Source: a virus. Taken from it: a stretch of 37,457 nt of DNA. Positions 4,749-22,007 of the stretch are shown here, piece by piece. How positions within the stretch are numbered: position 1 is the first letter of the stretch; every line of letters begins with the position of its first letter. A program made the position numbers and the translations under genes. The stretch is taken from the UHGV virus genome UHGV-1707574; one strand, 5' to 3'. Below the pieces are notes generated by a model. The model searched no databases and was not told the DNA's origin. It worked only from the letters and a program-made list of their open reading frames with translations.

Positions 4749-4765
4749 ATTGCTCTAATGTATTG
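4749..4765 (+). promoter_or_regulatory. C1 operator-like site upstream of lpa
   Basis: ATTGCTCTAATGTATTG, 14/17 to the P1 C1 operator consensus ATTGCTCTAATAAATTT; lpa is known to be C1-controlled. Confidence 0.6.
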
Positions 4766-5374: not shown

Positions 5375-6568
5375 GTGACCTGGGACGATCACAAGAAGAA
5401 TTTTGCTCGCCTGGCGCGAGATGGTGGTTACACCATCGCACAATATGCCGCCGAGTTTAATCTCAACCCAAACACCGCACGTCGTTATCTCCGTGCATTC
5501 AAAGAAGACACCGGAACAGCGGACAGCCGTAAGCCAAATAAGCCTGTCAGAAAACCACTAAAAAGCATGATCATTGATCACGCCAATGATCAACGTGCAG
5601 GTGATCACATTGTGGCTGAAATGGCTGAAAAACAAAGAGTTAATGCTGTTGTCAGTGCCGCAGTCGAGAACGCGAAGCGCCAGAATAAGCGCATAAATGA
5701 TCGTTCTGATGATCATGACGTGATCACCCGCGCCCACCGGACCTTACGTGATCGCCTGGAACGCGACACCCTGGATGATGATGGTGAACGCTTTGAATTC
5801 GAAGCTGGCGATTACCTGATAGATAACGTTGAAGCGCGGAAGGCCGCGCGCGCTATGTTGCGTCGGTCCGGGGCTGATGTTCTGGAAACCACTCTTCTGG
5901 AAAAGTCTCTCTCTCATCTCCTTATGCTGGAGAACGCCAGGGATACGTGTATTCGCTTGGTTCAGGAAATGCGCGATCAGCAAAAAGACGATGATGAAGG
6001 AACTCCGCCTGAATACCGTATCGCGAGCATGCTAAACAGCTGTTCCGCGCAGATAAGCAGCCTGATCAACACCATTTACAGCATCCGGAATAACTATCGA
6101 AAAGAAAGCCGGGAGGCGGAAAAGCACGCTTTGTCTATGGGGCAAGCTGGCATTGTTAAGCTGGCATACGAACGAAAGCGTGAAAACAACTGGTCAGTGC
6201 TGGAGGCAGCTGAATTCATCGAGGCGCATGGAGGGAAAGTACCGCCCCTGATGCTGGAGCAAATCAAAGCCGATCTGCGTGCTCCTAAGACCAATACCGA
6301 TGATGAGGAAAGGCAAACAGCCGTCGGTGGCCCTTCTCTTGAAGATCTGGACAAAGTTGCGCGAGAACGGGCCGCCAACCGCCGCGCCGATGCCGCATTG
6401 TGGATTGAGCAGCGTAGGGAAGAAATCGCCGATATCGTTGATACAGGCGGTTATGGAGATGTTGATACTGAAGGTGTATCAAACGACCCATGGCTGGAAC
6501 AAGACCTGGACGAAGACGAGGAGGAAGACGAAGAAGTTACCCGCAAGCTATACGGGGATGATGATTAA
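5375..6568 (+). CDS. pacA: PacA, terminase small/pac-recognition subunit, 397 aa
   Basis: GTG start with AAGGAAG SD; pac hexamer cluster lies inside the 5' part; acidic C-terminus; overlaps pacB start. Confidence 0.9.
5568..5726. other. pac packaging site (two clusters of TGATCA/G hexamers carrying Dam GATC sites)
   Basis: TGATCA at 5568, 5575, 5587, 5602; TGATCG/TGATCA at 5698, 5710, 5721 (another TGATCG at 5749). Confidence 0.8.
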
Positions 6569-8052
6569 TGGCCAGAAGTTGCGTAACGGATCCACGTTGG
6601 CGCGAGCTGGTGGCGCTATATCGTTATGACTGGATTGCTGCCGCTGATGTTTTGTTCGGCAAAACACCTACCTGGCAGCAGGATCTGATTATTGAGTCTG
6701 TGCAGGAACAGGGTAGCAAGACATCTGTTTCGTCTGGTCACGGTACCGGGAAATCAGACATGACTTCTATCATGATCATGTTGTTCATAATCATGTATCC
6801 AGGTGCCCGTGCCATTATCGTTGCGAACAAAATTCAGCAGGTAATGACCGGTATATTCAAGTACATCAAGATAAACTGGGCTACTGCCACCAGCCGTTTC
6901 CCATGGCTTGCTGATTATTTTGTTCTGACAGAAACCGCTTTCTATGAGGTTACAGGTAAAGGTGTATGGACTGTAGTACCGAAGGGCTTTCGTCTGGGAA
7001 GTGAAGAAGCTCTCGCCGGTGAACACGCAGATCATCTTCTGTATATTATCGATGAAGCCTCCGGTGTCAGTGATAGAGCTTTCGGTATCATCACCGGTGC
7101 TCTTACCGGACAGGATAACCGCATCTTATTACTGTCACAGCCTACACGCCCAAGCGGCTATTTCTACGATACACACCATAAACTGGCCAAGCGTCCTGGT
7201 AACCCTGATGGCGTTTATACGGCGATCACGCTTAACAGTGAGGAATCACCGCTGGTAACGCCAGCATTTATCAAAATGAAGCTGGCGGAGTACGGCGGGC
7301 GCGATAACCCTATGTACATGATTAAGGTACGCGGCCTATTCCCTAAATCACAGGATGGCTTCCTTCTTGGACGTGATGAGGTTGAACGTGCAACGCGGCG
7401 GAAAGTCAAGATTGCCAAAGGATGGGGCTGGCTTGCATGTGTGGACGTTGCTGGTGGTACGGGAAGGGATAAGTCCGTTATCAATATCATGATGGTGTCC
7501 GGCCAGAGAAATAAACGCCGTGTAATCAACTATCGAATGCTGGAATACACAGACGTTACAGAAACGCAGCTTGCCGCCAAAATTTTCGCAGAATGTAATC
7601 CTGAGCGATTCCCAAATATCACCATAGCGATAGACGGCGATGGGCTGGGTAAAGCAACGGCGGATCTGATGTACGAGTATTATGGTATTACCGTACAGCG
7701 TATACGCTGGGGTAAAAAGATGCATAGCCGTGAAGATAAAAGCCTGTACTTTGATAAGCGTGCTTATGCCAACGTTCAAGCCGCAGAGGCCGTAAAATCA
7801 GGTCGTATGAGACTGGATAAGGGTAATGAAACTATTGAGGAAGCGTCGAAAATCCCTGTAGGGATTAACTCCGCAGGTCAATGGAAGGTGATGAGTAAGG
7901 AGGATATGAAGAAAAAACTCAACCTGCACTCACCAGACCATTGGGATACATATTGTTTCGCTATGCTGGCGGATTATGTTCCCCAGGATGAAGTGCTTAG
8001 CGTCGAAGACGAAGCGCAGGTTGATGAAGCTCTGGCATGGCTTAATGAATAA
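6568..8052 (+). CDS. pacB: PacB, terminase large subunit, 494 aa
   Basis: Walker A GHGTGKS, Walker B LLYIIDE, C-terminal acidic nuclease-like motifs (CVDVAGG, AIDGDG, SPDHWD). Confidence 0.9.
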
Positions 8053-11719: not shown

Positions 11720-12280
11720 ATGAAAACAATCGAACAAAAAATTGAACAGCACCGTAAGTGGCAGAAGGCAGCCAGAGAACGAGCGATCGCTCGGCAACGG
11801 GAGAAGTTGGCTGATCCGGCCTGGCGAGAATCTCAATATCAGAAAATGCGGAATACTATCGACCGCCGTATCGCTAAACAGAAAGAGCGCCCACCAGCCA
11901 GCAAAACGCGGAAAAGCGCGGTAAAGATAAAATCTCGTGGCTTGAAGGGGCGAACACCGACAGCGGAGGAACGGAGCATCGCCAATGCTCTTGGCGCTCT
12001 CCCCTGCATTGCCTGCTACATGCATGGAGTAATATCTGAAGAGGTGTCTCTGCACCATATTTCCGGTCGTACCGCGCCTGGTTGTCACAAAAAGCAATTG
12101 CCACTTTGTAGATGGCACCACCAGCATGCAGCACCGGCTGAAGTAAGAGCAAAATACCCCTGGCTGGTCCCTGTTCATGCCGATGGTGTGGTTGGAGGCA
12201 AGAAAGAATTCACCCTGCTGAACAAGTCAGAGATGGAGTTACTGGCTGACGCCTATGAGATGGCAAACATCATGCACTAA
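11720..12280 (+). CDS. ref: Ref, recombination enhancement function (HNH-type endonuclease), 186 aa
   Basis: MKTIEQKIEQHRKWQKAARERAIARQ...; Cys/His cluster CIACYMHG...HHISGR...CRWHH; position after cre. Confidence 0.9.
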   Translation: MKTIEQKIEQHRKWQKAARERAIARQREKLADPAWRESQYQKMRNTIDRRIAKQKERPPASKTRKSAVKIKSRGLKGRTPTAEERSIANALGALPCIACYMHGVISEEVSLHHISGRTAPGCHKKQLPLCRWHHQHAAPAEVRAKYPWLVPVHADGVVGGKKEFTLLNKSEMELLADAYEMANIMH

Positions 12281-12319
12281 TAAATATATTATTTTTAATA
12301 ATAAATGATTGACAACTGA

Positions 12320-12338
12320 CAAGTGACTTCAGTCAGAA
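12320..12338 (+). promoter_or_regulatory. Candidate late promoter element upstream of the mat-like gene
   Basis: CAAGTGACT-N4-TCAGAA, same 9-mer as upstream of prt. Confidence 0.35.
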
Positions 12339-12430
12339 TCATCACATGCCCGGTACGGATGGATCCCTTTTCAAATATTCCATGGACGGCACAGTCTGAG
12401 TACCGGGCGCTACCTTCAGTTGTATTGCTA

Positions 12431-12457
12431 AGCCGCCGCTGGTGGCTTTTCTTTTTT
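12431..12457 (+). terminator. Hairpin plus T-run immediately upstream of the mat-like start
   Basis: AGCCGCC-GCT-GGTGGCT followed by TTTTCTTTTTT. Confidence 0.35.
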
Positions 12458-12468
12458 GTAGGGGCGTT

Positions 12469-13110
12469 ATGGATAAGAAAATATGCGTTGTTTCGATGAG
12501 CGTCGGCAAACCGGCATCAATGACTGCTGCATGGATCAATAACGAGCTGATAATGGCTGAGCGGACCAGCTACCCTGAACGCCGCCGCGATATGGAACTC
12601 CAGCTGCTGCGCGAATTGCGAGAAAAAGAGGAAAAGGGTTTTATCGTGCTGGTGGAAGAGGAAAACAGCTTTATTACTGGTCGAGTTGGCCAGCGTGTAA
12701 GGTTGCGCGATCCCTTCATGAACGGCAGGCCGGTACTAATTGAGGCAATGCAGATTTATAAGGAGCTGGAACGCCAGAAAGCAATCAAGTTACCGCGCAA
12801 GGAATCCGGCAAATACATCCTCCACCAAAGCATCTTCGATTCCGAACACGATAAAAAAGGCGATGAATTTTTCAACATCAACTGGAGCGAAATAACGACA
12901 GAGCACGTTCTGACGTTGTTATGCTGCTTCGCAACGGAATATAACAACGTTGCAAGCGCCGACTACATTAGGGCAATGGCAGGAGAAGTTGATGCCCGCC
13001 AGGAATCATCGTTACTAAGCCCTCTGATTAACATAATTCGCGGAACCCAAACACTGGCACAAAAACGGGTGCCTAAAGGGGAGTTAACTGGAAAAGGAAA
13101 TTATCTATAA
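12469..13110 (+). CDS. mat: Mat-like protein (particle maturation), about 213 aa; name by synteny only
   Basis: ORF 12442-13110, most likely ATG at 12469 (MDKKICVV...); composition like the P1 backbone; follows ref. Confidence 0.6.
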   Translation: MDKKICVVSMSVGKPASMTAAWINNELIMAERTSYPERRRDMELQLLRELREKEEKGFIVLVEEENSFITGRVGQRVRLRDPFMNGRPVLIEAMQIYKELERQKAIKLPRKESGKYILHQSIFDSEHDKKGDEFFNINWSEITTEHVLTLLCCFATEYNNVASADYIRAMAGEVDARQESSLLSPLINIIRGTQTLAQKRVPKGELTGKGNYL

Positions 13111-13166
13111 ACGTCAATGCATTAGGGTATACTTCTCCATAGAACTATAAGTAAATGGAGTAAGTA

Positions 13167-14474
13167 ATGAGCGAATATGTTGAGTTAGCATACGCTGCCG
13201 CTACAAGCAGGCTTTGTCTATTTACCGGGACTGGCTTTTCAAAGGCAGTCTCGAACGGTGAAGCTCCAACGTGGAAGGAACTATTAAAAAAAGTTTGCAG
13301 CAAAGTTCACAATGCCAAAAAGTTGGAAGACACGTTATTCCCTGATGATAAACCACCAGCACTGAGTCTTGAAGAAGCCGCACAAATACTATCTTTGAAG
13401 CTCAATATTGAGGGTAAGTCGATTTATGATGAAATTGTTGACATCATATCTCCAATTCAACTTGGAGAAGACATATCAAATATAAAAGATTTTTTCCAAA
13501 AAAACTCATTCCGTGTCATTACAACAAATTATGACAAGTTGGCTGAATGCTTGGTTGGAGATGAAAGTGTGCAGTCTATCACGCCCGGCCTGCCAATTCC
13601 AAAGTATCCATCCAAGGTGAAAATATATCATGTTCATGGTTCTATTGATTCGCCAAAAAATATGATTGTCACTTCAGATGATTACTTCAGATTTATAAAT
13701 TCCGATACTTATTTTTCACGAAAACTTAGTACGATGCTGCATGAAAATACAGTTGCGATATTAGGGTATTCTTTAAGCGACACAAATCTTAAAGCAATTA
13801 TAAATGACTATAAAAAATTTTCGAAAAATAATGCCCTGTGCTCTAATATCTTTTTGATATCTCGCAACAAAGTAAGTCAAGATATGAAGGATTATTACTT
13901 CTATTGCTTTGGTATAAGGGTAATTGACAATACAGAAATAGATTGTTTCTTTAGTCGATTAAGTTATAAGATTTCTCTCATTAAAGACATCATTGAAAGA
14001 GCGCGCGAAAATATCAGAAAAGTTGTTTCGGGGGCTTACACTTATAAAAATGAATATCTTAAATTAGAGGATTCATTTTATCAAATTATATCATCAATTA
14101 TATCGGAAGGTTTAGATTGGAATGATGATAAAGTCGTTTCTCTTTTCGAAAGGATAATAGAAAAAAAGAGAAAGTTAACAAGGAATAACGGAGCGTGGGA
14201 GCAATATGAACAGTTGGCAAAATGGCTTATATATTTTGGAAGCATCATAGAGGTTAGCAATACTAAGTATGAAAAAACATATTTAGACGCAGTTGAATAC
14301 TCGATGGGTCATATGAGTAAAGAAAGGAATTGGGGAGTTTCTTGGCATGCTTACAGAGCTTGGGAAACACGATGGCCTGCAATAATTGCCTCAAATAGAT
14401 TAATGATAAAAAACCACATTGAAACATTAGGCACCTTGAAGGACGCCAACCTTATAGTTAAGAATATAGTGTAA
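13167..14474 (+). CDS. SIR2-like (sirtuin/ThsA-type NADase fold) protein with unassigned C-terminal domain, 435 aa; candidate standalone anti-phage defence gene
   Basis: ATG 13167 with GGAG SD; motifs LFTGTGFS (res 19-26), ITTNYD (N121), IYHVHGS (H157); strongly AT-rich relative to flanks; terminator downstream. Confidence 0.8.
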   Translation: MSEYVELAYAAATSRLCLFTGTGFSKAVSNGEAPTWKELLKKVCSKVHNAKKLEDTLFPDDKPPALSLEEAAQILSLKLNIEGKSIYDEIVDIISPIQLGEDISNIKDFFQKNSFRVITTNYDKLAECLVGDESVQSITPGLPIPKYPSKVKIYHVHGSIDSPKNMIVTSDDYFRFINSDTYFSRKLSTMLHENTVAILGYSLSDTNLKAIINDYKKFSKNNALCSNIFLISRNKVSQDMKDYYFYCFGIRVIDNTEIDCFFSRLSYKISLIKDIIERARENIRKVVSGAYTYKNEYLKLEDSFYQIISSIISEGLDWNDDKVVSLFERIIEKKRKLTRNNGAWEQYEQLAKWLIYFGSIIEVSNTKYEKTYLDAVEYSMGHMSKERNWGVSWHAYRAWETRWPAIIASNRLMIKNHIETLGTLKDANLIVKNIV

Positions 14475-14489
14475 TTGTGGTCGATAAAA

Positions 14490-14521
14490 ATTTATCGGGC
14501 AGATAAAACTGCCCGATAAAT
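14490..14521. terminator. Bidirectional intrinsic terminator between the SIR2-like gene and lxc
   Basis: ATCGGGCAG-ATAAAA-CTGCCCGAT flanked by A/T runs on both sides. Confidence 0.7.
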
Positions 14522-14769
14522 TAATCAGCATTCAGGAGCAATGCGTTATCTATGATGATCTGCTCCCATTCTTCGAATGCCCGGTCACGGACGCCCTGGG
14601 GAACGCTGTTAGTTTTGAAATCGACGACCGTACGCCATTTCCCGTCCGGACGGTACATGCGCAGAGCTTTACTTCCCCCTTCCCTGCGCACCTCAACGTT
14701 ATGCTTATCAGCAAACTCTTGTAATGCTCGTAGCGTCCCATGCTTTACTGTGTAGTATCGCTTTTTCAA
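14521..14769 (-). CDS. lxc: Lxc, modulator of C1 repressor activity, 82 aa
   Basis: 82-aa ORF, TTG start with GGAGAG SD; position immediately before ulx/darB. Confidence 0.8.
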   Translation of the reverse strand: MKKRYYTVKHGTLRALQEFADKHNVEVRREGGSKALRMYRPDGKWRTVVDFKTNSVPQGVRDRAFEEWEQIIIDNALLLNAD

Positions 14770-15206
14770 GTTTTCTCTCCAGCCTGTGCTAAGGCTTCAA
14801 CTTCCAAATCGTAAGACTCAAACTCATAGTCCTGGTCGTCAACCTCTTCAGGCACTGGCAGTAAATGCCAGGCTGAGTATATCTGACCATTATCAAAACG
14901 CTCCTGGCTGTAGAGCGTCGCAGCTATGAGCGTCAGCGCCGGGCGGTCATAACGGTAAATTTTGCGAACGTCACGGTCAACGAGACGACCGAAATTACCA
15001 TAACCGCGCTCCAGTAATAATTTTTTAATTTCCGGCCAGTATGGACCATAGCTGCGGTACAGGCGGGGATTTTTCAGTAATCGCCCGCGTAGCCCTGACA
15101 GGAAGAAATCAACGTATTCGTCTTCTGTCTTTCCTAACAACGCTGTACGGAGTACCGCCTCAAGATATGTTTTATTCGGTTTTATTGTATCAGATAGTGT
15201 GGCCAT
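14766..15206 (-). CDS. ulx: Ulx-like protein, 146 aa (upstream of lxc)
   Basis: ATG 15206; stop overlaps the lxc start; name by synteny. Confidence 0.6.
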   Translation of the reverse strand: MATLSDTIKPNKTYLEAVLRTALLGKTEDEYVDFFLSGLRGRLLKNPRLYRSYGPYWPEIKKLLLERGYGNFGRLVDRDVRKIYRYDRPALTLIAATLYSQERFDNGQIYSAWHLLPVPEEVDDQDYEFESYDLEVEALAQAGEKT

Positions 15207-15239
15207 ATTATGCGACGCCCGGCGAACCGGGCGCTCCTG

Positions 15240-18200
15240 TTATGCGTATTGTTGGATGACGGCCAGAACGTCCGCCACGTTGTGTTTTGTCTCGATAATC
15301 CACCAGTTACCCGGGAAATCGCTGTTCTTCGCCTTCGCTGGCAGCCAGCGAGCGCCGAATTTCGCCTTGATTGCGTCTTTCGCACGGAAAAGAACGCCTT
15401 TCATGCCTGAGGCTTCCTGAAGCCCAAATACCTCGCCAGCGGCGAATTTTGGTGCGTACATCATCTTCAGGTCGGCGGTGGATACGCGATAATTCAGACC
15501 AAGAGACTGAGCTATGCTGGTGGCATCACCCTGTATTGATGATAACTCTTCTTGTTTCTCGTTTCTGGCGGCAATTTCTTCCTCCGTGATGTTGCCAAGG
15601 GCCAGGTTTATCCGATCAGCGTCGGCCTGTTTCTCTTCATCGGTGCGCCCGGCAAGAACCGTGTTAATTCTCTGCAATATCTCCACATGATTCTTACGCA
15701 TGCTGAGCAATTCCGGCGTAACTTCGTTAAGATCCACCAGCCCAAGGATGGCAAGGTCGGAAAACATTGATACCAGGTTGTAGGTCATGCGATAGCTGAG
15801 TTGGCCATAGGCTGATGGCAACTGCACCGCATCCATTTTATAGGCATCCATAAATTTAGAGCCGTCGTTTACGACATCCGCAATTGCCGGTGTGATTTTT
15901 CCTGTGGTGGCGGCCTCCCTGATTGCTGTTACCCACGATTGAGTCAGCGCGGAAACTGCATGATTCAGATTGGCTTTGCGTTCTGCTGCAATGCGCGCGC
16001 TTGCAGCGTCCATTGACTGTTTGATCTCGTCTTTATTGCTGTAAATGCCAATGGTGCCAAACTGTGCTGTGGTGATCTCATAATCTGACGCCCGGAACTC
16101 ATTGGTACCGAAAATGGCATTGGTGACTTCAAGTTCAGAATCCCCGTTACGAGTAGCCCCCTGGCTTGTTTTTTCCGGCATTCTGGCGATCGCATCCGCT
16201 ATTTTCTCCTGAATTGCTTCAGGGGATAGCGTATCTCCGTATGACGCGATTACATCGCCATAATTGGAGCCAAACAGTTCAACCAGGAATGTTTCTGCCG
16301 AACGGATCTGGCGGTTATTCCCTTCCGACATCATACCAAGCACCCATTTTGCAATTGACGACTTCAGCGCGCCGTCACGGCGATCCGGGTAAACCGCATG
16401 CTTCAGTGGGTCCGTATAGGTACCAACAAAATCAATGCTATAGCCTGACTCTGTAGTCTGAACGCCGTATGAGTCAGTGATTTTGATCATGCCGCGCTGC
16501 TGGAAACGGTAGAAATCGTCACAGGAAATGATGTCGTTAATCCCGGCGATGGAGACGCCGCCACTGATTTTCTGCATAACAGCATCTTCATCGGGAGTTA
16601 CATCAACCTGTTTATCCAGCGTCTTCACATCCCAGTTACCCGATTTGGTGCCTTTGAAGGTAAAGATGATCTCCACGTCTGCGCGCTGGCTGTCGAAGTC
16701 CAGCGACTTAATGCGAACGATATCACCGGCACAATCGTAGTATTGGCCTACACGCCATGAGCGATCGCCGATAACAAGGAACTCACTCGCATGGTTAACC
16801 AGGTCAGGATCAACATCCAGAATGCCTTTATTTATTGCATCCTCCACCAGCGGGCGCAGGCGTTTGATATCCGTCGCGGCCTTCTGAGTACGGTTCAATA
16901 ATTTCTCATAGCGGGAGATGGCTTGAGAGATATTAGCCTTGCGCTGAATGGCGTTTTTCAACGACGCGCGATACTGTGCTAACAACATACGGTCTGTGTG
17001 ATGGACGCTCCCCCAGCGGGCCTTCCAGTCTGCGTTATCAGCTGCTTTGGCCATTACCGCCTGTTTGAATTTAGCTACCTCGGCGGTGGTCTTTTCAAGT
17101 TCCGCTTTGCTTCGCTCTAATTCAGCGGTAAGTACCTCCACATCCTCGCCAGCTGCGTGCTGCGCCTTGATGTAGTTCTGAAGGTCGATAGTAGCCTGTT
17201 CTTTCTGGCGAGCGCGTTGCGCGGCTTTCGCCTTATCCATTTGAACCTGCATCATTGCCAGACGTTCGCCATCATCCTTAGCGGTATACATCTGCATTTC
17301 GATCATTTCGTTGGCGTCGGCGTTCTCCATTTCAGACTTATCTGAGCGGAGGATATCGGAGATCCAGCCTGCTTTACGCTTCAGCGTCTTCAGTCGGTAT
17401 TCATCGAAAGAACCCTTGCCGCAGTAGTAGTGAACGCGAACGCTTGCACGGTTGGAGCCAACTCGTGCACCGCGACCGTTACGTTGTGCGATACTGGCTG
17501 GTGTCCACGGCAACGTCAGGTGGTGGATATCCGTCGTTCCTCGATGCAGGTTGATACCCACCTCTGCCTTTTTGTTGCAGATGATGATCGGAGTCCGGCC
17601 CTCCTGGAAGTCGGCTGCAATCTTTTCCAGACCGCCCAACGACATTTCATTTTGCTGCGCGATATAGGCGTCATACAGAGCCATTTGCTCGTTGTATTTC
17701 GCTATCTGTGCATCTGTTGGTTCATCCGGTAGCTCTTTCGGCGGTTTAACCGCTTTCAGTTTCTTACCGGTTTTACCTGCCTCGGCAACCGTCTGAGCAT
17801 TCAGGATCCCCACCTTTGAAGGTTCAAGGTTAAGAGCATTGCAGATAATGCGCTTGAGCTTCTGGTGTTGCGTTTTTTCATCGGTGAAGATGATTTGCTT
17901 ACCTTCCGGGAAAAACTCCTTCAGCGTGGCAATCAGCTTCGCGTATTTGGGCGTAACGGGGTGAGTTACGGTCTGTTCGTCAATGCCAAACCTGGCCAGG
18001 CGCTTATTCACTTCCTGCTCGAACGCTTCCGGAACCTGCAACTGAATAAACTCGCCCTTATCTATCAGGGAGTATTGCGATTGCTGCGTGATTGAATCAT
18101 CACTGTCGTCGTCTTCGCTGGTGGCTTGTTTAGGCAAACTGTCCGCCAGCTGCTGCACCGCATCGGCGTACTCCGGCAGGAAACGATAGGTGATCCGGCG

Positions 18201-21200
18201 ATAGTACAGGTCCATGTCAGTACATACGCGGTCCATATCCCTGATTATTGAGAAGATCGGACGGGCTTTCTCGTGCTCAATCACGCCGTCTTCATTGACC
18301 GAGGTCGTTACGCCATTGTTGGCTTTGGCCGCCGCTTCCGCCTGCTGACGTAATTCTTCATACGCCGCCAGTTGTTCTTCAGTAAGTGGTGCATCCTGCT
18401 GGTGCTCGTCCAGTTCCGGGATCTCCACGGTATCCTTAACGTCTTCCGCCGTTTTAAGCGTTGTCCAGCGATGGAATATGCCGCGCAGCGCATCAAGGTT
18501 TTCAAAGCCCACCAGCGCCATTTTTTCTTCAACTTCACCGCTGATTTTCTGTACCGTTTCCAGCCTGGTCTTGCCGAAGAATTTAACGAAGTCATCAGGA
18601 CCGTAGATCCCCATCTTCTGCCAGTATTCCTTCGGCAGCACATGAGAAAGCATGTTGTATGCATCGATCGGGGTGTTAACGACTGGCGTTGCAGTCAGGA
18701 GAACCGGTCCGCGCCCACCATTCTTTTTCATCAGGTACGCGTTTTTAATTGCCATATCCCGCGCCGATTGCGCCACCGCGCTGGTGGGCAGATAGGCCAG
18801 TTGTGACGCTTCGCGACCATTTTTATAGCTATTGCGGTAGTTGTGACCTTCGTCAGCGATCACACTATCGAAGCCCATATCCTCAAAGTACGGATACTTC
18901 TCTGCTTTTTCGGTGCCGGTATCTGAATACTCCGACAATACCCGGCGACGCGCGGCCTCTTTGCGGTGGGAGTCGGAGTCCATTGCGCTGGCTACGCGCC
19001 CGGCGGCAACGAAGTCATAAAGCATATCCTGTGCATGCTCATCTACGGTGTCATCACGTAGCGGAATGCGGGCGTATTGTTCTTTGGTAAACACGACTGC
19101 ACGGTAATTTGAGTGCGGGATCGCGTTCATCCGCGCCGTGATAGTGGCTTCATCTGCCAGTTTTAGGGCATCGCGCATAACTGGAGTGCCATCAGTACCA
19201 AGAACAGGTTTACCGTTCTCATCGAGCACCGGCACCTGGCGAATCTGATCGCCATCCATCAGCACATCAAGACCGACGAACAGGTAGTTACTGAATGCCT
19301 CTTCACTCAGGAATTCTTTTGCTTCGTAATACCAGTTTTCCAGCACTGATTTAGGCACTACATACGCAGTACGGGTGGAGCGACCGTTCTCATAGTTGAA
19401 CGCTTCAAGCGCCAGCGCGGTCGTAGTTTTACCCAGCCCGGTGCCGAAGCCCAGGATGCCGCGCCCATCTTCGGACAGTCGGCGCACTTCGCTATTCTGG
19501 TAATCAAATGGCTGGCGCTTACCGCTTAATCCCTTCAACCCAAGCGGATCGCCAGAGTGTTCATACGGGATATTGCTATTGAACACATCGTTGTATTTGG
19601 CAACCAGTTCATCGTAGCGATCGTGCGTCTTGATCCACTTATTGAACTGGTCCTCAAGCAGTGCCATCTGCTCGCGGTAGCCGTTCGCCGTCGCGCTATC
19701 TTTGCCACCGATACGCGCACCATTGAGATACTTTTCCAGCTGTGCCGGGAACCCGGTCGCGTTTTCACCTGATTTACGGTCCCACTCGTAGCGGATCTCG
19801 CCTGTTTCTTTATCCTTGCGCTGGACGACACCGTATCGGTGCCCGACGAACAGACCATCACCACCGTGATAGGTGTCAGAAACCATTTCGTCGCCTTCCA
19901 GCTGCACTGACTGCACATAGCGAAGATCCGGATAGCCGTTTTCCTGCAAAAATTCCAGAATGACGGAACGGTCGAACCAACGGCTATTGAGCTTAAAGCG
20001 GATATTCTCTGCTGGCGTCTTGATGCGCTTCTCTTCGATCGCTGCCAGCTGATTAAGGACGTTGTTCTTTACTGGACCGTCGGGGAGTGTGGCAAGGAAT
20101 TCCCGTTTTGGTGCCACTATCTCGTTAATGTCGCCGCTGGTGGCGCGGGCGAACGGAACAATCCCGCCATACGGTGAAACCGCAATGCCAGGGGTGCTGG
20201 CCAATAAATTAAGCAACTCGTCATCACTGGCTGGCAGTTCGCCGGTAAACGCAAGGCGGAAATCATCGAGCTGGATTGGATCGCGAGTGAGATCACTGTA
20301 GAGATAACGCAGGGTGTCCTGATAGCTGGTGGAGTCATAACTGGCGCTGGAATCATGCGTAACCAGTTTTCCTGTCAGCTCGTCAGAAATAGTGCCATCC
20401 AGCTTAATTGCACCACGGAAAGCAAACCAGGCGCGCGCACCGCTCCCCGATAATTTCGCTATCGGACCGCGACCGGGGTTACCAAAACGGTCAATCTCTG
20501 CCTGCAAACGGGATACCAGAGAAAGGCGCTGCTGTTCGATTTGTTCAGCACTATGCCCGGCGGCCTTCATGTCCTGATATTCAATTAACATCCGGCCAAT
20601 CATCGCCCCGCGATACAAGCGTTCACGGTATTTTTCAGGCTGGCTGTTAATCCAGTCCACCAGCTGCACCATATCGTCGCTGATTGATGTGGTGTACTTA
20701 TCGCGGACATTTGCCATCTGGGTAAATGTCATGCCGAGACGGCCTTCTGTTGTAGTCAGGTTACGCTGAAGAGCCTCCCAGCTATCCGCGCCATAACTGG
20801 CAGCATCGATCTTAAGTTCCTTCCCGGCATCAGCTTCAATCCAGCGACCACCAGCATATTTTTGCCATACACCATTAATCAGGCGCATTTCCCCTTCACC
20901 AACAACGTCTGCGGTCGGTGACGGTTCAGCCATATCGAGCAAAGACCAGTCGATACGGCTTTCGAAACGATGAATCAGCTTCGCTTTAAGAGCCTGGTTA
21001 TCAATCTGACCGTCGGCACGAACCTCAATACGCCCCTGGAAGCCCTTTTCCTGGGTGCCATGAACAAACCGGCGGCCATCCTTTTCAAACCACTTGCCAG
21101 AAATAAACGTTGGCCAAAGCACATTTGCCGATTCAAGAGTGCCTTCATCCACCAGGGGGATTTTCTCAGCCATCTCTGCCGGATGTTTGCGCATCAGCAC

Positions 21201-22007
21201 CACATCAACGACTGTACTGGTCCCGTTTGCGTCAAAAGTACCGGTAGGCAAGCGGTGAGCGCCAAGAAATTCAGCTTTCCGTGATAGGCGCAGGCGTAAC
21301 CGCTTCATGTTTGAACCTGAAACAATGGACGGCGGCACAATCACACACATGAATCCGCCAGGCTTTATCTTGTCCAGCATGCGGAGCATGAAGTAAGAAC
21401 CCATGTCCGTTTCTTCTGCGTAAGGCTTATCGATGTTGCGTGTGTTATCACGACCGCCGAACGGAACGTTACCCACAACATGGTCGAATGAATCGTTAGG
21501 CGTGCTTATAGCCAGCTGTTCGAACGGGGAAATCTGTACGCTGTCTTCCGGGTGTAACAACTGGTTTATACGACCGGAAACACTGCTGATCTCAGTCGCG
21601 GTCATCACCGTACCAACCGGTTTTGTCTCATTAAAAACGCCGGTTCCCGCCGATGGTTCCAGAGTGTTACCTACGTCCGCGCCGTAGAGCTTCATGATCT
21701 CCCAGACACCTTCAGCGATCGGCTTTGGTGTGTAATATTCGGAGACGGACCCGCCAATGCCGCCTTCACCGGTGTACCCAGCCAGGATCTGGCGCTGTTC
21801 ATCTGTCAGTGTCGCGCCGTCCACCAGCGAATTAAGCAAATCTATCGCCTTCTGATTCGCCTCCCGGCGTAGTCGGTCATAGCTTTTGCCTTCCACCTTT
21901 TCCACGCCGTATCTAATCGGCGCTCGGTGAGATGTTATTGCCCTAATGTATTTCAATATTTCGCTGACACTTGAACAGCGAAACACCCCCATAGATAGCT
22001 TGTTCAT
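15240..22007 (-). CDS. darB: DarB, 2255-aa methyltransferase/helicase-type anti-restriction protein
   Basis: Single 6.8-kb ORF; SF2 helicase motifs GFGTGLGKT and VIADEGHNYR; size and position match P1 DarB. Confidence 0.9.
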   Translation of the reverse strand: MNKLSMGVFRCSSVSEILKYIRAITSHRAPIRYGVEKVEGKSYDRLRREANQKAIDLLNSLVDGATLTDEQRQILAGYTGEGGIGGSVSEYYTPKPIAEGVWEIMKLYGADVGNTLEPSAGTGVFNETKPVGTVMTATEISSVSGRINQLLHPEDSVQISPFEQLAISTPNDSFDHVVGNVPFGGRDNTRNIDKPYAEETDMGSYFMLRMLDKIKPGGFMCVIVPPSIVSGSNMKRLRLRLSRKAEFLGAHRLPTGTFDANGTSTVVDVVLMRKHPAEMAEKIPLVDEGTLESANVLWPTFISGKWFEKDGRRFVHGTQEKGFQGRIEVRADGQIDNQALKAKLIHRFESRIDWSLLDMAEPSPTADVVGEGEMRLINGVWQKYAGGRWIEADAGKELKIDAASYGADSWEALQRNLTTTEGRLGMTFTQMANVRDKYTTSISDDMVQLVDWINSQPEKYRERLYRGAMIGRMLIEYQDMKAAGHSAEQIEQQRLSLVSRLQAEIDRFGNPGRGPIAKLSGSGARAWFAFRGAIKLDGTISDELTGKLVTHDSSASYDSTSYQDTLRYLYSDLTRDPIQLDDFRLAFTGELPASDDELLNLLASTPGIAVSPYGGIVPFARATSGDINEIVAPKREFLATLPDGPVKNNVLNQLAAIEEKRIKTPAENIRFKLNSRWFDRSVILEFLQENGYPDLRYVQSVQLEGDEMVSDTYHGGDGLFVGHRYGVVQRKDKETGEIRYEWDRKSGENATGFPAQLEKYLNGARIGGKDSATANGYREQMALLEDQFNKWIKTHDRYDELVAKYNDVFNSNIPYEHSGDPLGLKGLSGKRQPFDYQNSEVRRLSEDGRGILGFGTGLGKTTTALALEAFNYENGRSTRTAYVVPKSVLENWYYEAKEFLSEEAFSNYLFVGLDVLMDGDQIRQVPVLDENGKPVLGTDGTPVMRDALKLADEATITARMNAIPHSNYRAVVFTKEQYARIPLRDDTVDEHAQDMLYDFVAAGRVASAMDSDSHRKEAARRRVLSEYSDTGTEKAEKYPYFEDMGFDSVIADEGHNYRNSYKNGREASQLAYLPTSAVAQSARDMAIKNAYLMKKNGGRGPVLLTATPVVNTPIDAYNMLSHVLPKEYWQKMGIYGPDDFVKFFGKTRLETVQKISGEVEEKMALVGFENLDALRGIFHRWTTLKTAEDVKDTVEIPELDEHQQDAPLTEEQLAAYEELRQQAEAAAKANNGVTTSVNEDGVIEHEKARPIFSIIRDMDRVCTDMDLYYRRITYRFLPEYADAVQQLADSLPKQATSEDDDSDDSITQQSQYSLIDKGEFIQLQVPEAFEQEVNKRLARFGIDEQTVTHPVTPKYAKLIATLKEFFPEGKQIIFTDEKTQHQKLKRIICNALNLEPSKVGILNAQTVAEAGKTGKKLKAVKPPKELPDEPTDAQIAKYNEQMALYDAYIAQQNEMSLGGLEKIAADFQEGRTPIIICNKKAEVGINLHRGTTDIHHLTLPWTPASIAQRNGRGARVGSNRASVRVHYYCGKGSFDEYRLKTLKRKAGWISDILRSDKSEMENADANEMIEMQMYTAKDDGERLAMMQVQMDKAKAAQRARQKEQATIDLQNYIKAQHAAGEDVEVLTAELERSKAELEKTTAEVAKFKQAVMAKAADNADWKARWGSVHHTDRMLLAQYRASLKNAIQRKANISQAISRYEKLLNRTQKAATDIKRLRPLVEDAINKGILDVDPDLVNHASEFLVIGDRSWRVGQYYDCAGDIVRIKSLDFDSQRADVEIIFTFKGTKSGNWDVKTLDKQVDVTPDEDAVMQKISGGVSIAGINDIISCDDFYRFQQRGMIKITDSYGVQTTESGYSIDFVGTYTDPLKHAVYPDRRDGALKSSIAKWVLGMMSEGNNRQIRSAETFLVELFGSNYGDVIASYGDTLSPEAIQEKIADAIARMPEKTSQGATRNGDSELEVTNAIFGTNEFRASDYEITTAQFGTIGIYSNKDEIKQSMDAASARIAAERKANLNHAVSALTQSWVTAIREAATTGKITPAIADVVNDGSKFMDAYKMDAVQLPSAYGQLSYRMTYNLVSMFSDLAILGLVDLNEVTPELLSMRKNHVEILQRINTVLAGRTDEEKQADADRINLALGNITEEEIAARNEKQEELSSIQGDATSIAQSLGLNYRVSTADLKMMYAPKFAAGEVFGLQEASGMKGVLFRAKDAIKAKFGARWLPAKAKNSDFPGNWWIIETKHNVADVLAVIQQYA

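What the first reader, a model, noticed from the sequence alone, without database searches (positions are those of the whole stretch)
13111..14521. A single AT-rich SIR2-like gene sits where P1 carries its type III res-mod genes
The flanks are P1 backbone: ref and a mat-like gene to the left, lxc-ulx-darB to the right. In P1 as I recall it, the mat-lxc interval holds the EcoP1I res/mod genes, several kb long. Here that interval is only about 1.4 kb and contains one 435-aa ORF with its own SD and a strong bidirectional terminator shared with lxc. Its composition is visibly different from everything around it (long A/T runs, AAA/AAT/ATA/TTT-rich codons; by eye roughly one-third G+C against about one-half in the flanks, exact values need computing), which is the signature of a horizontally acquired cassette. 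The N-terminal half carries SIR2/ThsA-type hallmarks: a glycine-rich loop, a TTNYD asparagine and a HxHG histidine at the spacing expected for sirtuin-like NADases. No partner gene (TIR, HerA, Argonaute, STAND NTPase) is present, so if it is a defence gene it acts alone. Hypothesis: an NAD-depleting abortive-infection or superinfection-exclusion protein carried as cargo in the variable defence slot of a P1-like phage-plasmid.
Basis: partly seen in the sequence, partly recalled or inferred. Interest (0 to 1): 0.9.

Follow-up and report, generated by a model that had tools for sequence, protein, structure and literature searches.

The report
Solo SIR2 defence candidate in P1 slot
A P1-like phage-plasmid carries, where phage P1 has its restriction-modification genes, one AT-rich gene for a 435-residue SIR2-type enzyme that most likely destroys NAD+ to stop other phages; the gene is already catalogued in over a hundred plasmids, but I found no paper that tested it.

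Summary
ORF 13167-14474 (435 aa) fills the 1,410-bp mat|lxc interval, where P1 has 6.3 kb of res/mod. It has 34.9% G+C against 48.6% for the window.

It is a defence-type SIR2_2 protein (Pfam E=1e-23). The GxG loop, TTNYD N121, HVHG H157 and GYSxxD are invariant, and N121/H157 align with DSR2 N133/H171. Residues 256-435 form a short alpha-solenoid found only in this family.

No neighbouring gene family recurs across 60 species. The gene also sits alone in P1-like plasmids and at an E. coli prophage end, so it stands alone.

It fails membership of DSR1, DSR2, ThsA, SIR2-HerA and Lamassu, and matches PADLOC candidate PDC-S25 only over the SIR2 core.

It is not new as a sequence:
- About 125 of about 700 P1-like PLSDB plasmids carry the family in this slot, as two lineages 59% identical.
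- It is annotated "SIR2 family protein" and is phrog_7567 (unknown function).
- The slot's variability is published.

In one plasmid SIR2 sits beside res-mod, so it is an added module, not strictly a replacement.

Most likely it is an auto-inhibited, phage-triggered NADase that aborts infection (confidence about 0.6). Activity, trigger and expression in lysogens are untested. Verdict: a new variant of a known kind, of moderate interest.

The parts
12469..13110 (+). mat (maturation control), P1 backbone and left flank of the slot. Its last ~100-150 nt diverge from P1, so the left recombination boundary lies inside it.
   Evidence: The global alignment to P1 2600-3480 is ~99% identical up to about window 12990 and then decays. 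The CDS is annotated at the equivalent position in pSJ_98. The Pmat/Omat region upstream (about 12268-12340) is conserved with P1.
13111..13166 (+). 56-nt leader with Shine-Dalgarno GGAG at 13157-13160. It is shared almost unchanged (55-56 of 56 nt) by both SIR2 lineages found in P1-like plasmids, but not by chromosomal homologues.
   Evidence: Sequence. Comparison of leaders. Only weak sigma-70-like matches (8 of 12) were found here.
13167..14474 (+). SIR2-family gene, 435 aa, identical to WP_023156640.1. It is the whole cargo of the slot.
   Evidence: ORF. Pfam SIR2_2 scores 84.4 bits against a cut-off of 24.5. It is 100% identical to the annotated CDS in pSJ_98 and others. dN/dS between alleles is 0.12-0.16, which indicates purifying selection.
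13167..13931 (+). N-terminal SIR2 (Rossmann-type) NADase domain, aa 1-255. The N121 codon is at 13527-13529 and the H157 codon at 13635-13637.
   Evidence: phmmer aligns aa 14-282 to DSR2, with TTNYD on DSR2 T131-D135 and H157 on the residue mutated in DSR2 H171A. Foldseek hits DSR2, KomC, ThsA and Avs5 SIR2 domains with E down to 4e-8. The motif residues are invariant. There are no CxxC pairs, so no sirtuin zinc module (read from the sequence).
13932..14471 (+). C-terminal all-helical domain, aa 256-435. It is a short alpha-solenoid and the presumed sensor or regulatory domain.
14489..14522 (.). Perfect 14-bp inverted repeat (AATTTATCGGGCAG / CTGCCCGATAAATT, loop ATAAAA) between the convergent SIR2 and lxc genes. 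It overlaps the lxc stop codon by 2 nt and is probably a terminator, clearest for lxc.
   Evidence: It folds at -23.3 and -23.1 kcal/mol, z -7.1 and -7.6. The consensus scan did not call it. Each slot variant carries a different hairpin at this place.
14521..14769 (-). lxc (bof), the C1 co-repressor. It is P1 backbone and the right flank of the slot. Homology to P1 and P7 resumes exactly at its stop codon.
   Evidence: Megablast matches to P1-like phages and P7 start at query position 2522, which is window 14521. P1 annotation.
14766..22007 (-). ulx and darB, the P1 anti-restriction genes. They are backbone context only.

Best explanation
The gene encodes a self-contained, single-protein anti-phage effector of the defence-type SIR2 class. 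It rides as cargo in the mat|lxc accessory slot of a P1-like phage-plasmid.

Proposed mechanism
1. The protein is made in cells that carry the element and is held inactive.
2. Its family-specific C-terminal alpha-solenoid (aa 256-435) senses infection by another phage. Most plausibly it binds a phage protein, or it controls oligomerisation.
3. This frees the N-terminal SIR2 active site (GxG loop, N121, H157, GYSxxD).
4. The active site hydrolyses NAD+ and starves the infected cell. The incoming phage fails, and the sister cells that carry the plasmid survive (abortive infection).

What is shown and what is inferred
- Shown: the fold, the motifs and their conservation, the fixed two-domain architecture, the solo status, purifying selection, and the mobile, AT-rich, defence-slot context.
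- Inferred by analogy with DSR2, ThsA, KomC and Avs5: NADase chemistry, auto-inhibition, a phage trigger, an abortive outcome, and expression in the lysogen.
For: SIR2 domain
- Pfam SIR2_2 E=1.1e-23.
- PADLOC hits fall only on SIR2 modules of defence proteins: PDC-S25, ThsA, LmuA, Dsr2, Dsr1.
- PDB sequence and fold matches are all defence NADases: DSR2, KomC, ThsA, Avs5. N121 and H157 lie on DSR2 N133 and H171.
- Every catalytic motif is invariant in 40 homologues.
- The protein has no CxxC zinc module (sequence).

C-terminal domain
- It is a confident alpha-solenoid. DSR2's sensor domain belongs to the same fold class (abstract of PMC11850899).
- It occurs only in this family.
- It diverges faster than the enzyme domain.

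Solo status
- The cassette has 56 nt upstream and 46 nt downstream of the ORF.
- No neighbour family recurs in more than 4 of 60 species-level loci.
- The 118 immediate neighbours share no family beyond genus-level synteny.

Defence context
- The same slot holds EcoP1I res-mod or a RelA/SpoT family gene (possibly CapRel-like) in relatives. A DefenseFinder survey of P1-like elements reports RM III, dGTPase, PrrC and CapRel.
- An E. coli chromosomal homologue sits alone at a prophage end beside the integrase.
- Other homologues abut a type I restriction enzyme, an HD-domain (dGTPase-like) gene, PD-T7-1, PD-T7-5, AbiU and HamB-like genes.
- The gene is 10-20 G+C points below its host in 6 of the 7 other homologue loci measured.

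The gene is functional
- dN/dS is 0.12-0.16 between alleles.
Against: - No activity, phenotype or trigger was tested, and I found no paper on this family.
- No convincing sigma-70 promoter lies between mat and the gene, and no terminator separates them. Transcription may therefore come from Pmat/LPmat. In P1 these are annotated as C1-controlled and late. That would mean little expression in a quiescent lysogen.
- Many C-terminal residues are invariant, including W344, W353, W393, W399 and W403. That fits a structural or regulatory role as well as a variable sensor.
- dN/dS is below 1 throughout, so there is no signal of an arms race.
- Defence genes are adjacent in only a minority of the 60 loci. 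Many neighbours are housekeeping genes.
- The catalytic-core segments aa 180-226 are modelled with low confidence.
Confidence: 0.6

Rival explanations
1. It is a SIR2 enzyme that serves P1's own life cycle rather than lysogen defence. It would be co-transcribed with mat from the C1-repressed and late promoters and act during induction or lytic growth. For example, it might exclude co-infecting phages or remodel host metabolism at that stage.
For: The gene lies 56 nt downstream of mat on the same strand. There is no terminator-like site between them and only 8-of-12 promoter matches. The Pmat/Omat/LPmat region is conserved with P1. Both SIR2 lineages in P1-like plasmids keep the same leader and mat 3' end.
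Against: Homologues at 50-60% identity live in chromosomes with unrelated upstream regions and no mat. The protein's function therefore does not depend on P1 biology. The RelA/SpoT family cargo of 673R5 occupies the same slot in the same orientation. Weak or unconventional promoters are not excluded.
Confidence: 0.12
2. The SIR2 domain uses NAD+ for something other than bulk depletion. It might ADP-ribosylate a phage or host target, or make a signalling nucleotide, with immunity or toxicity coming from that product.
For: Motifs and fold establish NAD+ binding and cleavage but not the acceptor. The conserved, Trp-rich C-terminal domain could hold a substrate.
Against: All the closest solved relatives are described as NAD+ hydrolases (molecule names). 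No downstream effector gene that could read a signal is linked to the family.
Confidence: 0.13
3. It is a genuine NAD-dependent protein deacylase (a regulatory sirtuin), as the current RefSeq product name says.
For: RefSeq names it 'SIR2 family NAD-dependent protein deacylase'.
Against: It matches PF13289 SIR2_2. All solved relatives found are defence-associated SIR2 proteins (DSR2, KomC, ThsA, Avs5), most of them named as NADases. It has no CxxC zinc module (sequence). Its distribution is patchy, AT-rich and linked to mobile elements. Its NCBIfam hits are only to Dsr1 and Dsr2.
Confidence: 0.04
4. It is inert hitch-hiking cargo or a decaying gene with no current function.
For: It is AT-rich foreign DNA in a recombination-prone slot.
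Against: The ORF is intact in over 100 plasmids. dN/dS is 0.12-0.16. All catalytic residues are invariant across Proteobacteria at 52-62% identity.
Confidence: 0.03

Closest known systems
DSR2 (defence-associated sirtuin 2, Bacillus subtilis; PDB 8wkt, 8k98 and others)
   Same: It is a single-protein system. It has an N-terminal SIR2_2 NADase domain with the same Asn/His pair (N133/H171 against N121/H157). This is followed by an all-helical alpha-solenoid region that acts as the phage-protein sensor in DSR2. DSR2 is the best sequence and fold match in the PDB (abstract of PMC11850899).
   Different: DSR2 has about 1,000 residues, with MID and CTD domains. This protein has 435, with a solenoid of about 180 residues. 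Similarity stops at about aa 282. It scores 22.5 bits on the NCBIfam Dsr2 equivalog, whose cut-off is 1,400. The C-terminal domain has no detectable sequence relative outside its own family. The trigger is unknown.
ThsA (Thoeris effector) and KomC (Kongming effector)
   Same: They share the SIR2_2 NADase core: PADLOC ThsA E=2e-17 and PDB 6lhx, 8bto and 8zsf.
   Different: ThsA has a SLOG/STALD ligand-binding domain and needs ThsB. KomC works with KomA and KomB. Here the C-terminus is an alpha-solenoid and no partner gene is linked. ThsB was adjacent in 1 of 60 loci only.
PADLOC candidate PDC-S25 (and phrog_2695)
   Same: It is the best PADLOC hit (E=1.4e-26). It is a single-gene SIR2 'phage defence candidate'.
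   Different: Only profile positions 127-289 of 517 are matched, which is the SIR2 core. The rest of that roughly 520-aa family is unrelated. As far as I found, PDC-S25 itself is only a computational candidate.
Accessory slot between mat and lxc of P1-like phage-plasmids (res-mod 'variable region 1')
   Same: The location is the same, and the low G+C is as reported for this region (PMC9603915). Relatives carry EcoP1I res-mod or a RelA/SpoT family gene (possibly CapRel-like) here.
   Different: SIR2 as an occupant is not mentioned in the papers I could read. Yet it is among the commoner occupants, in about 18% of PLSDB P1-like plasmids.

Membership tests
SIR2_2 (Pfam PF13289), defence-type SIR2 domain | Score above the Pfam gathering threshold over the whole domain | tested here: met
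   84.4 bits against a cut-off of 24.5. Residues 117-252 cover profile positions 3-140 of 141.
SIR2_2 (Pfam PF13289), defence-type SIR2 domain | Catalytic Asn and His, plus the GxG and GYSxxD NAD-binding motifs | tested here: met
   N121 and H157 align with DSR2 N133 and H171; the latter is the residue changed in the H171A structures. G21, G23, N121, D123, H157, G158, G200, Y201, S202 and D205 are invariant in 40 sequences.
SIR2_2 (Pfam PF13289), defence-type SIR2 domain | NAD+ glycohydrolase activity | not testable with these tools
   This needs an enzyme assay.
DSR2 | Full-length equivalog match (NCBIfam NF041819, cut-off 1,400 bits); about 1,000 aa with MID and CTD | tested here: not met
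   22.5 bits, over aa 117-208 only. The protein has 435 aa.
DSR1 | Full-length equivalog match (NCBIfam NF041818, cut-off 1,400 bits) | tested here: not met
   26.2 bits, over aa 112-209 only.
Thoeris ThsA | C-terminal SLOG/STALD domain and an adjacent ThsB (TIR) gene | tested here: not met
   The C-terminus is an alpha-solenoid. The cassette has no second gene. ThsB is adjacent in 1 of 60 loci.
SIR2-HerA | An adjacent HerA-type ATPase gene | tested here: not met
   The only other ORFs in 13111-14520 are short antisense ORFs inside the SIR2 gene. No recurrent neighbour was found in 60 loci.
Lamassu (LmuA with SIR2 effector) | An LmuB SMC-like partner and the LmuA C-terminal region | tested here: not met
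   The LmuA profile is matched only at positions 14-238 of 433. No LmuB lies in the slot. An AAA_23/SMC_N gene lies about 4.4 kb downstream on the opposite strand in one locus only.
SPARSA / short pAgo-SIR2 and Avs5 (SIR2-STAND) | An Argonaute partner, or a fused STAND NTPase | tested here: not met
   No such domain is in the protein or next to it.
PADLOC PDC-S25 | A match along the whole profile of about 520 positions | tested here: not met
   Only profile positions 127-289 of 517 are aligned.
phrog_7567 / the family of WP_023156640.1 (about 435-aa SIR2 plus solenoid) | An end-to-end match | tested here: met
   E=3.8e-248, residues 1-434 on profile 1-434 of 434; the function is listed as unknown. 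It is identical to the annotated CDS in many plasmids.
Anti-phage defence system (functional class) | Protection against phage when expressed; loss of protection in catalytic mutants | not testable with these tools
   Only context supports it.

The most novel reading that the evidence does not exclude
This is the founding, still untested member of a distinct defence family: a minimal 'mini-DSR' of about 50 kDa. In it a SIR2 NADase is fused to a private alpha-solenoid of about 180 residues that alone recognises a phage component. The family is spread across Proteobacteria. It is carried by roughly one in six P1-like phage-plasmids as two deeply diverged lineages. It apparently went unreported in a DefenseFinder survey of these elements. 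If so, it would be the smallest self-sufficient SIR2 sensor-effector, a compact model for how such enzymes are gated, and an unrecognised contributor to phage exclusion by clinical E. coli plasmids.
Probability: 0.5. Interest if true: 0.55.

Novelty: new variant of a known kind. Interest (0 to 1): 0.42.

Why it matters
P1-like phage-plasmids are common in clinical and livestock E. coli and Salmonella and often carry resistance genes. If this gene is an active NAD+-depleting defence, about 18% of these elements give their hosts a phage-exclusion function. The survey I read, which used DefenseFinder, did not report it. That matters for phage therapy and for competition between mobile elements.

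Mechanistically, a 435-residue protein that both senses and kills would be a much simpler system than the roughly 1,000-residue DSR2 tetramer. It could help show how a SIR2 NADase is kept off and switched on.

The finding does not open a new class of biology. SIR2 NADase defence, single-protein sensor-effectors and prophage defence slots are all established.

Tried and rejected
1. Partner gene. I looked inside the cassette. I looked in six individually inspected homologue contexts. I also looked across 60 species-level loci, by all-against-all clustering of 671 neighbouring ORFs and by PADLOC and Pfam scans of the 118 nearest ones. None was found. The large ORF upstream in the three Acinetobacter loci appears to be aconitase, which is housekeeping.
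2. Mat as partner. The Pseudoalteromonas homologue also has a gene of about 207 aa upstream. That gene did not recur in the clustering, and Mat is present in P1 without SIR2. Rejected.
4. Positive selection on the C-terminal domain. dN/dS is higher than in the N-terminal domain but well below 1, so no arms-race claim is made. The alleles are mosaic: the first 300 nt are identical in L017.
5. A dedicated promoter or C1 operator for the gene. The consensus scan, a relaxed scan and an operator search found nothing convincing in 12700-13166.
6. Literature. Searches by accession, PDC-S25, SIR2 with P1-like or phage-plasmid, single-gene SIR2, DSR and DefensePredictor found no experimental work on this family. 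Subscription-only papers are not covered.
7. Exact source record. No PLSDB plasmid matches the first 25 kb of the window end to end. pSJ_98 differs elsewhere: the TnpB gene annotated in pSJ_98 has no counterpart ORF at the corresponding place in the window.
Full report
**What is there**

The window is a P1-like phage-plasmid backbone. It runs through phd/doc, pacAB, c1, cre, c8, ref, mat, lxc, ulx, darB and onwards. Between the stop of mat (13110) and the stop of the convergent lxc (14521) lie 1,410 bp.

This interval contains a single substantial ORF, 13167..14474 on the + strand, encoding 435 aa. A GGAG sits 6 nt before the ATG.

A perfect 14-bp hairpin at 14489-14522 lies between the two convergent genes. 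It folds at -23 kcal/mol with z about -7 on either strand. A U-run follows it only on the lxc strand, and the consensus terminator scan did not call it.

In P1 itself the same interval is 6,281 bp and holds res, mod and an IS5.

The ORF has 34.9% G+C (GC3 32.6%), against 48.6% for the window and 47-52% for the flanking genes. It is the lowest-GC stretch of the whole window.

**Breakpoints**

On the right, homology to P1, P7 and relatives resumes exactly at the lxc stop codon.

On the left it does not end at the mat stop. Identity to P1 is about 99% up to roughly 12990 and then decays through the last 100-150 nt of mat.

**What the protein is**

Residues 117-252 match Pfam SIR2_2 at 84.4 bits, against a cut-off of 24.5.

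PADLOC hits fall on the SIR2 modules of PDC-S25, ThsA, LmuA, Dsr2 and Dsr1.

Against the PDB, the best sequence matches are DSR2, KomC and ThsA. The best fold matches are DSR2, KomC, ThsA and Avs5.
- In the DSR2 alignment, TTNYD (119-123) lies on DSR2 T131-D135.
- H157 lies on the histidine replaced in the H171A structures.

In an alignment of 40 homologues at 52-87% identity, these are invariant: the GxG loop (G21, G23), N121, D123, H157, G158 and the GYSxxD motif at 200-205.

The protein has six cysteines and no CxxC pair, so it lacks the zinc module of classical deacylating sirtuins (sequence).

The full-length AlphaFold model has pLDDT 78.9. It gives a Rossmann-type domain for aa 1-255 and an all-helical domain for aa 258-435. 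The least confident segments (aa 141-145, 180-193, 203-226) lie inside the highly conserved catalytic core.

**The C-terminal domain**

Modelled alone, it has pLDDT 89.8 and is a bundle of helices, eight of them long.

A phmmer search of aa 256-435 against 1.84 billion representative proteins found 75 clusters. Every full-length hit is a 421-480-aa protein with the match at about residues 255-435. The shorter hits look like fragments.

Ten of the more distant full-length hits all have a SIR2_2 N-terminus. The domain is therefore private to this family and is not a module shared with other effectors.

It diverges faster than the enzyme domain:
- between close alleles, 69-74% identity against 95%;
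- against distant homologues, 45-56% against 60-68%.

**It stands alone**

The cassette has room for nothing else. Six homologue contexts inspected by hand share no neighbour. The genera are E. coli, Pseudoalteromonas, Pantoea, Paracidovorax, Rhizobium and Marinobacter.

I then fetched loci from 65 species and called neighbouring ORFs in the 60 with an essentially complete copy of the gene. I clustered the 671 ORFs all against all.
- No family occurs in more than 4 loci, and none at a fixed adjacent position beyond within-genus synteny.
- Pfam and PADLOC scans of the 118 nearest neighbours confirm this.
- They also show a scatter of defence genes next door: dGTPase twice, type I restriction enzyme, PD-T7-1, PD-T7-5, AbiU, HamB-like, and one ThsB.

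In E. coli chromosomes, a 60%-identical copy sits alone at the end of a prophage beside the integrase.

In the seven other homologue loci measured, the gene is 10-20 G+C points below its surroundings in six. The exception is Pseudoalteromonas, whose surroundings are equally AT-rich.

**How common it is, and the slot**

The gene is absent from 50,697 phage records, both as DNA and by tblastn. In PLSDB:
- 127 plasmid records match the query, against 699 that carry the lxc-ulx backbone. That is roughly 18% and an upper bound, because a few records match only the junction.
- About 40 records carry this allele at 99% identity or more.
- Among 5,426 complete E. coli genomes, 134 have a match, almost all on plasmids.

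All are annotated 'SIR2 family protein' or 'SIR2 family NAD-dependent protein deacylase'. The family is phrog_7567, with function listed as unknown.

Two lineages occupy the slot.
- Lineage A is the window's allele plus variants at 84-87% identity.
- Lineage B is only 59% identical to A. That is as far from A as either is from homologues in other genera.

Both lineages nevertheless share the same mat 3' end and an almost identical 56-nt leader. Chromosomal homologues lack that leader. Close alleles are mosaic, and dN/dS is 0.12-0.16 overall, so the gene is maintained by selection.

The slot itself is variable:
- empty in RCS47;
- a RelA/SpoT family gene, possibly CapRel-like, in 673R5 and SJ46;
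- two other genes in Ro157c2YLVW;
- res-mod in P1.

In pE2865-1 the order is mat - SIR2(B) - res - mod - lxc. A copy of about 100 bp of the lxc 3' end lies between SIR2 and res. SIR2 is thus an added module, not strictly a substitute for res-mod.

The variability and low G+C of this region are already published (PMC9603915). A DefenseFinder survey of about 1,600 P1/D6 elements lists RM III, dGTPase, PrrC and CapRel in its text, but no SIR2 system (bioRxiv 10.1101/2025.09.12.675607). The survey's tables are images that I could not read.

**Most likely mechanism**

By homology the N-terminal domain binds and cleaves NAD+. By analogy with DSR2, ThsA, KomC and Avs5, the enzyme is probably held off until infection. 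The C-terminal solenoid probably either binds a phage protein or governs oligomerisation. DSR2's sensor domain belongs to the same fold class (abstract of PMC11850899). Activation would drain NAD+ and abort the infection.

Only the fold, the motifs, the architecture, the solo status and the context are shown. The chemistry, the trigger, the auto-inhibition and the phenotype are inferred. I put this at about 0.6.

**Main uncertainty**

I found no convincing promoter between mat and the gene, and no terminator between them. There is also no C1 operator in the cassette.

The P1 regulatory region upstream of mat is conserved here. In P1 it is annotated as a C1-controlled promoter plus a late promoter. 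If that is the only source of transcription, the protein may be scarce in a quiescent lysogen. The gene might then act during induction or lytic growth instead.

Other rivals are:
- a different NAD+-consuming chemistry, such as ADP-ribosylation or signal synthesis;
- a true deacylase, as RefSeq names it, which is unlikely;
- inert cargo, which purifying selection contradicts.

**Comparison with known systems**

It works most like a DSR: one protein, a SIR2 domain at the N-terminus and a helical sensor behind it. It is not a member of DSR1 or DSR2, scoring 26 and 22 bits against equivalog cut-offs of 1,400.

It also lacks the SLOG domain and ThsB of Thoeris, the HerA of SIR2-HerA and the LmuB of Lamassu. 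It has no Argonaute partner and no STAND module. It matches the computational candidate PDC-S25 only over the SIR2 core.

I found no paper that tested this family. Subscription-only literature was not searchable.

**Verdict**

The finding is a new variant of a known kind, not a new kind.

It is a good, cheap experimental target: common, compact and apparently unreported in a DefenseFinder-based survey. A specialist would not be surprised to find a solo SIR2 protein in a prophage defence slot. The sequence is already catalogued. Interest 0.42.

Noticed in passing
L015 5350-5545 (pE2865-1, NZ_AP018809.1, about 5985-6180): In the one plasmid found with both SIR2 and res-mod in the slot, a copy of about 100 bp of the 3' end of lxc lies between the SIR2 stop and the res terminator. 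The intact lxc follows after mod. This looks like a scar of module insertion by homologous recombination through lxc.
   Followed up: partly
window 13081-13166, compared with L015, L016, L017, L025 and L026: The end of mat and the 56-nt leader are 55-56 of 56 nt identical between SIR2 lineages A and B. The proteins of those lineages are only 59% identical. Chromosomal homologues have unrelated leaders. The leader is either a recombination anchor or a conserved regulatory element.
   Followed up: partly
window 12430-12469: A terminator-like hairpin with a T-run (AAGCCGCCGCTGGTGGCTT TTCTTTTTTG) lies between the conserved Pmat region and the ATG at 12469 that RefSeq uses for mat. It lies inside the longer mat CDS annotated in P1 (2716-3468). 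Just after it, the window has a 1-nt deletion relative to P1, which breaks that longer frame. It may be an attenuator, or the P1 mat start may be mis-annotated.
   Followed up: no
window 14489-14522, compared with L019 (RCS47), L020 (673R5), L015 and L016: Every variant of the slot brings its own, different GC-rich hairpin immediately after the lxc stop codon. The lxc terminator therefore belongs to the variable cargo and not to the backbone.
   Followed up: partly
L002-L005 (E. coli chromosomes), gene at 6001-7311: A 60%-identical family member (33% G+C) sits alone at the edge of a prophage, next to the integrase and beside the narP/ccm region. In some strains an AIDA-type autotransporter gene lies just beyond it. 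This is a second, independent mobile-element slot for the family in E. coli.
   Followed up: partly
window 13167-14474; RefSeq records: RefSeq now names the product 'SIR2 family NAD-dependent protein deacylase'. The protein lacks the sirtuin zinc module, and its solved relatives are defence-associated SIR2 proteins, most named as NADases. The name is probably misleading.
   Followed up: yes
window 4749-25803 (seven sites): Seven matches to the P1 C1 operator consensus ATTGCTCTAATAAATTT with at most 3 mismatches, against 0.18 expected by chance. They are at 4749, 9023, 9487, 9570, 11130, 21937 and 25787. None lies in or next to the SIR2 cassette.
   Followed up: no
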